NCBI GenBank assembly: GCA_951406725.2
Contig: OX597823.1
Coordinates: forward strand, 99,758,001 to 99,822,000
DNA length: 64,000 nt
Direction of reading: 5' to 3'
Origin: Octopus vulgaris
Taxonomy: Eukaryota
Both the position numbers and the translations under genes were made by a program. How positions within the stretch are numbered: position 1 is the first letter of the stretch; every line of letters starts with the position of its first letter. The notes below the pieces were generated by a model. That model saw only the letters and a list, made by a program, of their open reading frames with translations, ran no database searches and was not told where the DNA came from. Shown here in pieces: positions 50,478 to 50,800 of the stretch.

Positions 50478-50800
50478 ATAGTTATCGCCATACTAATATG
50501 GCATTCTTATAAAAATAAGAATAAAGCTGTCCGCTTATTAGCTCCATGAGGCCATCGCCTTAAGTTAGCTATTTGATACACAAACTGTATCCATATAACC
50601 TTCAACAAGGGAGGTCAGTCGCTCCACACTACTTGACCGGCAGCTGCAGACGCGTTTCGGGGTATTGCCCCTTTTCAATGCAGCGTAGCCAGACAGTAGG
50701 TGTCGCTTCTGACAATCTCTGTTCGAAGGTTTTATTTACCTAGCTTCGGTGGAATACATCCACTTGTTTTCAATAATAGAAATATTAAAATTTATATATA
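50478..50800 (-). mobile_element. Short hammerhead-carrying element in (TA)n (Penelope pLTR or retrozyme-like)
   Basis: Unique island between TA arrays containing a complete minimal hammerhead. Confidence 0.6.
50643..50684 (-). ncRNA. Minimal type-I hammerhead ribozyme, U3:A8 variant
   Basis: Minus strand GCTGCA-TTGAAAA-GGGGcaataCCCC-GAAA-CGCG-TC-TGCAGC: perfect 6-bp stem I, 4-bp stem II, palindromic ACGCGT stem III, GUC cleavage triplet. Confidence 0.8.

What the first reader, a model, noticed from the sequence alone, without database searches (positions are those of the whole stretch)
50643..50684. Complete U3:A8 minimal hammerhead on the minus strand
Seen: GCUGCA UUGAAAA GGGG-caaua-CCCC GAAA CGCG UC^UGCAGC. 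Every helix is perfect and the cleavage triplet is GUC. The only two departures from CUGANGA (C3>U and G8>A) compensate each other. The palindromic ACGCGU stem III would allow two copies to swap strands. This is the best candidate for an active ribozyme in the window (inference).
Basis: partly seen in the sequence, partly recalled or inferred. Interest (0 to 1): 0.8.

Follow-up and report, generated by a model that had tools for sequence, protein, structure and literature searches.

The report
Variant hammerhead in Penelope-driven mobile repeat
The motif is a real hammerhead-ribozyme fold with a swapped core pair (U3:A8) inside a 362-base non-coding mobile repeat present in about two thousand copies; it likely cuts its own RNA when two copies pair, and the repeat's insertion ends match those of Penelope-like retrotransposons, which likely copy it.

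Summary
The sequence is as described (50643-50684, minus strand; cleavage site after 50649), but it is not minimal and helix III is not perfect. Stem I continues past a UAC/U internal loop, and helix III is a 1-2 bp palindrome that pairs fully only in a dimer. The motif lies in a truncated copy (50475-50792) of a 362-bp non-coding repeat with 1,975 exact 21-mer hits, inserted in (TA)n as arrays and inversions: a non-LTR retrozyme. Across 13 related motifs, 15 of 19 pairs covary, including 3:8 (U-A 9, C-G 4). Arm 3' ends fall at two fixed internal sites; 40 of 41 classifiable inverted insertions have one end at each, as do 6 of 6 two-ended copies of an RT-encoding Penelope-like element that also carries U3:A8. 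With an ACCGGU stem III, U3:A8 outnumbers C3:G8 by 11,550 to 190. U3:A8 and retrozymes are both published. Cleavage and circular RNA are untested, and mismatched-core subfamilies also spread. The scan noted a similar Penelope-type repeat (tRNA-bearing) in another genome.

The parts
50475..50792 (-). 5'-truncated copy of the 362-363 bp retrozyme monomer (318 nt; monomer positions 219-362 then 1-175, counted from the cleavage site; lacks 44 nt; one 1-nt deletion)
   Evidence: 318/319 identical to a tandem array elsewhere in the genome; family copies
50643..50684 (-). Type I hammerhead: stem I (50684-79 with 50648-43), core U3-A9 (50678-72; U3 50678, A8 50673), stem II (50671-68 with 50662-59), loop II CAAUA, G12-A14, palindromic stem III ACGCGU (50655-50650), C17 at 50649
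   Evidence: sequence; covariation
50685..50692 (-). 5' side of the stem I extension: CUGGC helix strand and UAC internal-loop bases (likely tertiary contact with loop II)
   Evidence: fold; 4 of 5 outer pairs change on both sides and U at the first loop position is invariant in 13 motifs; the contact itself is inferred
50637..50642 (-). 3' side of the stem I extension: unpaired U and GCCGG helix strand
50475..50481 (-). 3' insertion end at internal site 1 (...AACUAU|UAU) running into (TA)n; likely reverse-transcription start
   Evidence: 53 of 117 arm ends fall here and 55 at site 2; window junction
43468..51662 (.). Interrupted (TA)n microsatellite that is the insertion target and holds several other repeat fragments

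Best explanation
The motif is a type I hammerhead fold with a compensated U3:A8 core pair inside a 362-bp non-coding tandem mobile repeat (a non-LTR retrozyme) whose RNA likely self-cleaves when two hammerheads pair through their palindromic stem III, and which is likely copied into (TA)n by a Penelope-like element's enzymes. Shown: the fold, its covariation, about 2,000 dispersed copies, head-to-tail arrays, 5' truncations, inversions, two fixed internal 3' ends, and RT-encoding Penelope-like elements in the same genome with the same core swap and the same short/long end rule. Inferred: arrays are transcribed; adjacent hammerheads swap strands and cut at GUC; the monomer is ligated into a circle; a GIY-YIG endonuclease nicks both strands of (TA)n; each nick primes reverse transcription at one of two internal CUAU sites about 63 nt apart; the enzyme runs round the circle or along an uncut multimer, giving arrays and inverted arms. 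The window copy is a sub-monomer product of this process with one hammerhead, and would cleave poorly unless a partner comes in trans.
For: Copies: 1,975 exact hits of a 21-mer outside the ribozyme, control 0; best copies 96-100% identical. Period 362-363 bp, arms up to about 5.5 units. Monomer folded as a circle: z = -9.0 against 60 shuffles, stems I and II formed at p>=0.94. 13 motifs from this and related repeats: 95.5% of cells paired, 15 of 19 pairs change on both sides, 0 of 500 shuffles reach this, slid controls 29-49% paired. L124, 82-90% identical to the C3:G8 sister repeat, carries U3:A8. Position 7 varies among A, C and U while A8 holds. Ends: 108 of 117 arm 3' ends at two sites, 104 of those 108 abut TA-rich flanks. 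Of 47 inverted pairs, 40 have one end at each site, 1 has both at one site, 6 have an unclassified end. The same short/long rule holds in 6 of 6 two-ended copies of a Penelope-like element and 2 of 2 inverted sister-repeat insertions. That element has RVT_1, a weak C-terminal GIY-YIG match, a U3:A8 hammerhead just after its ORF and ends at CTAT|(AT)n. Papers: the one-sided tail and inversions are Penelope hallmarks (PMC8557442); a purified Penelope-like protein extends both strands from two internal sites (PMC11167929); U3:A8 hammerheads are active in vitro (stated in PMC3088659, citing a paper not held); an axolotl hammerhead with the same weak palindromic helix III cleaves well only in dimeric constructs (PMC7229834).
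Against: No cleavage or circular RNA was shown. Mismatched cores also spread: C3/A8 has 297 hits, including a 360-bp tandem array, and U3/G8 has 377 hits, mostly one Penelope subfamily among the 100 listed, so an intact 3:8 pair is not strictly needed for amplification. At most 1 of 117 arms starts at the cleavage site, and ambiguously, so there is no genomic trace of cut linear templates. In vitro, hammerhead mutants did not block Penelope-like insertion (PMC11167929), and 1 of 9 Xenopus retrozyme dimers cleaved (bioRxiv 10.64898/2026.07.22.740005). The Penelope element found shares no sequence with this repeat beyond the core type and the CTAT end, so the exact partner is not identified. The GIY-YIG match is below Pfam's cut-off. 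The 67 loci and 13 motifs are not random samples, and the motifs were found with core-containing patterns.
Confidence: 0.75

Rival explanations
1. The repeat is Penelope-mobilised, but its hammerhead is weak or needs protein, and copies are made from uncut multimeric transcripts; the fold is kept mainly as a structure the enzyme binds.
For: C3/A8 and U3/G8 subfamilies amplified; arms cross the cleavage site freely and almost none start there; the Anolis element's hammerhead needs protein and is dispensable for insertion in vitro (PMC11167929).
Against: The 3:8 pair, stems I-II, the outer helix and the palindrome all covary across distant repeats. Matched cores outnumber mixed ones 11,740 to 674 for the ACCGGU class. 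Monomers within an array differ by 0-5 bases, against 13-20 between L035 and other young arrays, as expected from copying one circle, though local homogenisation would do the same.
Confidence: 0.17
2. The copies are the terminal repeats (pLTRs) of an autonomous Penelope-like element whose coding body I did not find, not an independent retrozyme.
For: Same end rule, target and core type as the autonomous element; Penelope protein fragments lie near a few copies (L016, L055).
Against: Arrays are pure 362-bp units with no ORF between them. The Penelope fragment in L016 is separated from the repeat by (TA)n. No DNA similarity to 5 long Penelope copies beyond 16-21 AT-rich bases at E = 0.36.
Confidence: 0.06
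3. An ordinary satellite expanded by unequal crossing-over, with a hammerhead-like motif by chance or as a relic.
For: Arrays are internally homogeneous.
Against: Copies are dispersed over many contigs, arrays are short, ends are fixed at two sites and 45 of 67 loci have head-to-head inversions; descriptor chance rate 0 in 300 shuffles.
Confidence: 0.02

Closest known systems
Non-LTR retrozymes of animals (Cervera and de la Pena 2020, PMC7229834; mussel 350-390 bp, axolotl 330/350 bp)
   Same: Non-coding tandem unit of similar size, GC below 50%, one type I hammerhead per unit, highly self-paired predicted circle, weak palindromic helix III like HHR_Amex1.
   Different: Core is U3:A8. (TA)n targeting, inversions and the two-site end rule are not described in the parts I read. 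Circular RNA is not shown here.
Hammerheads of Penelope-like elements, including the U3-A8 variant of Schistosoma Cercyon (PMC4209133)
   Same: Same U3-A8 covariation (about 1,300 hits there); palindromic stem III and dimer model.
   Different: Those are minimal motifs with a long helix II and a poorly defined loop 1, mostly single and heterogeneous. This one has the canonical 6-bp helix I, 4-bp helix II and internal loop, in a young homogeneous tandem repeat.
EN+ Penelope-like elements with tail and inverted structure (PMC8557442; Anolis Poseidon, PMC11167929)
   Same: Partial tandems, inverted 5'-truncated arm, a tail at one end only, two internal initiation sites, AT-rich targets.
   Different: No ORF; the tail is about 63 nt instead of 30-40; the ends match the target (CTAT into ATAT), whereas the Anolis enzyme started at sites not homologous to the cut DNA.
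Natural U3:A8 hammerheads (Perreault 2011, PMC3088659)
   Same: C3-G8 covarying to U3-A8 in natural motifs.
   Different: Described there as several examples; here it is the majority core among motifs with an ACCGGU or ACGCGU stem III.

Membership tests
Type I hammerhead ribozyme | Conserved core CUGANGA / GAAA / UH with a 3:8 Watson-Crick pair | tested here: met
   All positions canonical except the U3:A8 swap; 3:8 paired in 13 of 13 motifs
Type I hammerhead ribozyme | Helices I and II with compensatory changes, open end at helix I | tested here: met
Type I hammerhead ribozyme | Stable helix III within one molecule | tested here: not met
   At most 2 bp round a 2-nt loop, predicted probability 0.0; 6 bp only between two molecules. 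Most animal type I motifs share this (PMC4209133).
Type I hammerhead ribozyme | Loop I / loop II tertiary contact | tested here: inconclusive
   Internal loop and A-rich loop II are kept in place across 13 motifs; the contact cannot be modelled here and the match to the Schistosoma contact is recalled
Type I hammerhead ribozyme | Self-cleavage 3' of H17 | not testable with these tools
   Only contigs of guessed-RNA runs were available; they cannot show ends
Rfam hammerhead families | Score at or above the gathering threshold | tested here: not met
Minimal PLE hammerhead (min-HHR) | No helix III, long helix II, no defined loop 1 | tested here: not met
   4-bp helix II, palindromic helix III, extended stem I
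Non-LTR retrozyme | Tandem non-coding unit of 150-450 bp with one type I hammerhead per unit | tested here: met
   362-363 bp arrays; 13 of 67 sampled loci have two or more hammerheads in one arm (read)
Non-LTR retrozyme | Dispersed multi-copy family without LTR structure or ORF | tested here: met
   PBS and PPT motifs were not searched for
Non-LTR retrozyme | Highly self-paired monomer | tested here: met
   circular fold z = -9.0
Non-LTR retrozyme | Expressed as linear and circular monomers | tested here: inconclusive
   Head-to-tail joints in contigs of 3 of 4 runs, but RNA status is a guess and genomic arrays give the same joint
Autonomous Penelope-like element | RT plus GIY-YIG ORF between the repeats | tested here: not met
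   No ORF in the unit or between units
Penelope-type insertion signature | Inverted 5'-truncated arm and a tail at one end only | tested here: met
   45 of 67 loci inverted; 40 of 41 classifiable pairs are short/long

The most novel reading that the evidence does not exclude
In this animal U3:A8 has become the usual hammerhead core across Penelope-like elements and their retrozyme parasites, giving more than 13,000 motifs that canonical descriptors and Rfam miss. The retrozyme is a circular RNA copied by a Penelope enzyme dimer that primes both DNA strands at two staggered CUAU sites. The short/long end rule would then be a direct genomic signature that retrozymes move by Penelope machinery, and the genome keeps the stepwise path C3:G8, C3/A8, U3:A8 in sister families.
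Probability: 0.5. Interest if true: 0.7.

Novelty: new variant of a known kind. Interest (0 to 1): 0.52.

Why it matters
How animal retrozymes are copied is still open: the 2020 paper proposes Penelope-like elements as the helpers, and the 2026 preprint supports this by co-occurrence and sequence relationship in vertebrates while stating that the mechanism is unresolved. Here the insertion ends themselves carry the Penelope signature, shared with an RT-encoding element in the same genome, and they name the two RNA sites to test with a purified enzyme. The genome also offers natural C3:G8, C3/A8, U3/G8 and U3:A8 cores in related scaffolds, and shows that hammerhead counts based on CUGANGA can miss most motifs of a class in a genome.

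Tried and rejected
Rfam: no hammerhead match. Expression: no RNA holder listed on record; contigs of four guessed-RNA runs cover the monomer (29, 27, 14 and 29 of 29 bins) and three show head-to-tail joints, but cannot show strand, ends or circles, so this counts neither way. Search for arms starting at the cleavage site: one ambiguous case, L026. Search for an autonomous element homologous to this repeat: none among 5 long Penelope copies or 15 further hammerhead loci. PDB sequence search with the Penelope ORF: 0 hits. The two LINE ORFs in the window (40285-43404, 59448-62555) were rejected as helpers because they have AP-type endonucleases, not the GIY-YIG type linked to tails and inversions. 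Host gene: three candidate ORFs gave no convincing Pfam hit; whether the locus is intronic is unknown. One 'monomer' from L039 was a pattern artefact, and the 53-54-base differences in L149 compare two separate insertions; both were dropped from the within-array comparison. Earlier scan findings by sequence: none. A link to cephalopod A-to-I editing was considered and dropped: editing A8 would weaken, not favour, a U3:A8 pair (reasoning only).

Full report
Observation. The minus strand at 50684-50643 reads exactly as reported, with C17 at 50649. It is the only hit in the window of a type I descriptor that allows either C3:G8 or U3:A8, and 300 locally shuffled windows gave none. Two details are wrong. 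Stem I goes on past a UAC/U internal loop into a CUGGC/GCCGG helix and a long rod (z = -4.67), so the motif has the canonical animal type I layout, not the minimal one. Helix III is A-U plus CGCG, which cannot form a proper hairpin; it makes 6 bp only between two molecules. Rfam misses the motif.

Context. The motif lies in a 318-nt island inside an 8-kb interrupted (TA)n tract. The genome is a 2.8-Gb animal assembly; its size and repeats resemble an octopus (my inference, not tested). The island is a fragment of a 362-363 bp repeat: 59 matches came from the 40 of 1,382 candidates that were scored, the full-length ones 96-100% identical, and a 21-mer outside the ribozyme occurs 1,975 times against 0 for the control (the window copy itself lacks it through a 1-nt deletion, so this is a lower bound). 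Copies form head-to-tail arrays of up to about 5.5 units with no ORF. An older subfamily is 81-91% identical. The window copy runs from monomer position 219 through the ribozyme to 175, lacks 44 nt and has a single hammerhead. Folded as a circle, a natural monomer is far more stable than 60 shuffles (z = -9.0) and keeps stems I and II formed.

Is the fold under selection? A sister repeat of 359-360 bp has the canonical C3:G8 core, the same loop II and an ACCGGU stem III. A relative 82-90% identical to it has U3:A8 (L124). In an alignment of 13 motifs chosen for diversity, 95.5% of cells pair, 15 of 19 pairs change on both sides, and position 3:8 is U-A in 9 and C-G in 4 with no mismatch; the two central stem III bases switch together (GC 7, CG 6), keeping the palindrome. 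These motifs were found with patterns containing the core, so core conservation is partly built in; pairing of stems I and II was not. Among 31 occurrences of the outside 21-mer in 20 loci, 19 had a parseable core upstream, all U3:A8; 3 of those had a change in stem III or the triplet, and 12 were truncated or damaged.

Genome-wide core counts. With stem III ACCGGU: U3:A8 11,550 (control 76), C3:G8 190 (29), C3/A8 297 (50), U3/G8 377 (46). With ACGCGUC: A8 1,877 (174; position 3 not fixed in that pattern) and C3:G8 16 (6). The hits are families, not independent events, and other stem III classes were not counted; canonical minimal motifs with ACGU were seen in L014 and L026. The mixed classes matter: a C3/A8 variant of the sister repeat occurs as a 360-bp tandem, and a U3/G8 Penelope subfamily has many copies. 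The pair is therefore favoured but not strictly required for spread.

How it moves. I mapped 67 loci, one per fetched region after dropping overlapping fetches, taken from best hits and from the first hits on contig C1 (not a random sample). Of 117 arm 3' ends, 53 fall near monomer position 175, 55 near 238 and 9 elsewhere; 104 of the 108 abut TA-rich sequence. Both sites end in CUAU. 45 of 67 loci have a head-to-head inversion. Of 47 inverted pairs, 40 have one end at each site, 1 has both at 175 and 6 have an unclassified end (40 of 41, binomial p = 2e-11 against even odds). 5' ends are scattered and at most one arm begins at the cleavage site, so templates were uncut or re-ligated. Monomers within an array differ by 0-5 bases, while L035 differs from other young arrays by 13-20; this fits rolling-circle copying but also local homogenisation.

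The likely helper. One U3:A8 class sits just downstream of a long ORF (up to 682 aa open) with RVT_1 (E = 1.2e-7), a weak C-terminal GIY-YIG match (E = 0.004, below cut-off) and a zinc-finger-like linker of the kind described for Neptune elements; 17,141 candidates, 150 scored. It also ends at CTAT into (AT)n. Among 18 loci examined, all 6 two-ended ones have one short and one long end; the sister repeat does too in 2 of 2 inverted insertions. It shares no other sequence with our repeat, so it is a candidate helper, not a proven one.

Literature. Non-LTR retrozymes, their circles and dimer-dependent cleavage: PMC7229834 (parts 2-4 of 6 read; its supplement could not be read, and may list cephalopod repeats). 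Retrozymes as non-autonomous Penelope derivatives, 1 of 9 dimers cleaving: bioRxiv 10.64898/2026.07.22.740005 (parts 1-3 of 5; supplements not seen). U3-A8 in Schistosoma elements: PMC4209133 (parts 1-2 of 4; one of two supplementary files searched, no cephalopod entry). Natural U3:A8 and prior in vitro activity: PMC3088659 (passages); the primary kinetic paper and the dimer-cleavage paper were not held. Tails and inversions: PMC8557442 and its preprint (passages). Two-site internal initiation on both strands, hammerhead dispensable in vitro: PMC11167929 (parts 1-2 of 4). Passages only: PMC6155905, PMC6765202, PMC7761336, PMC7151607. An octopus repeat annotation lists recently active Penelope-like families and does not contain the words ribozyme or retrozyme (PMC13282606, passages). 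Searches listed no paper whose title or abstract describes cephalopod hammerheads, or tails and inversions in retrozymes; the library lacks most subscription papers, and repeat databases were not checked.

Verdict. The feature is real and is a variant of known things: a non-LTR retrozyme whose hammerhead has the known U3:A8 swap. I put dimer self-cleavage at about 0.7 and Penelope-type mobilisation at about 0.9 (judgement). What is new is the setting: U3:A8 as the majority core of two stem III classes in one genome, with sister families showing each state, and an insertion-end rule that ties a retrozyme to Penelope machinery. Expression, cleavage and circles remain untested. The window copy is probably a dead-end insertion.

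Noticed in passing
G000, (L077-L096, L136-L138): At least five further repeat families with U3:A8 hammerhead-like motifs and an ACCGGU stem III, very AT-rich, some with a GUA triplet or a 2-bp stem II; 11,550 pattern hits in all.
   Followed up: partly
L100-L106, L108, L131: Sister retrozyme of 359-360 bp with a canonical C3:G8 core, tandem and inverted, ending near monomer positions 180 and 225 in (TA)n.
   Followed up: partly
G000:C4:80857199-80857948: Three-unit 360-bp tandem of a sister-type repeat with a mismatched C3/A8 core; a possible intermediate, or an inactive ribozyme that still spread.
   Followed up: no
L119-L123: High-copy Penelope-like element with long open RT-endonuclease frames; most copies have U3:A8 and one subfamily has U3/G8 (L121).
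   Followed up: partly
window 45073-45789 and 49538-49746: Two inverted arms of another repeat family in the same (TA)n tract (97.6% identical over 209 nt), with a CUGAUGA box but no recognisable GAAA arm; they flank a palindromic island at 47397-47894.
   Followed up: partly
window 52142-52462: Near-perfect inverted repeat island, a multi-copy family with the same head-to-head pattern.
   Followed up: no
window 40285-43404 (-): LINE with an open 1,039-aa endonuclease-RT frame inserted between (TA)n tracts; near-identical pieces lie in L055 and L120.
   Followed up: partly
window 59448-62555 (+): RTE-like LINE broken into at least three frames.
   Followed up: partly
L021 / L065: Single canonical-core hammerhead-like motif with ACGCGU stem III whose 5' flank resembles this family's stem I.
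   Followed up: no
window 52834-53096: 103-bp tandem repeat, 2.6 copies.
   Followed up: no
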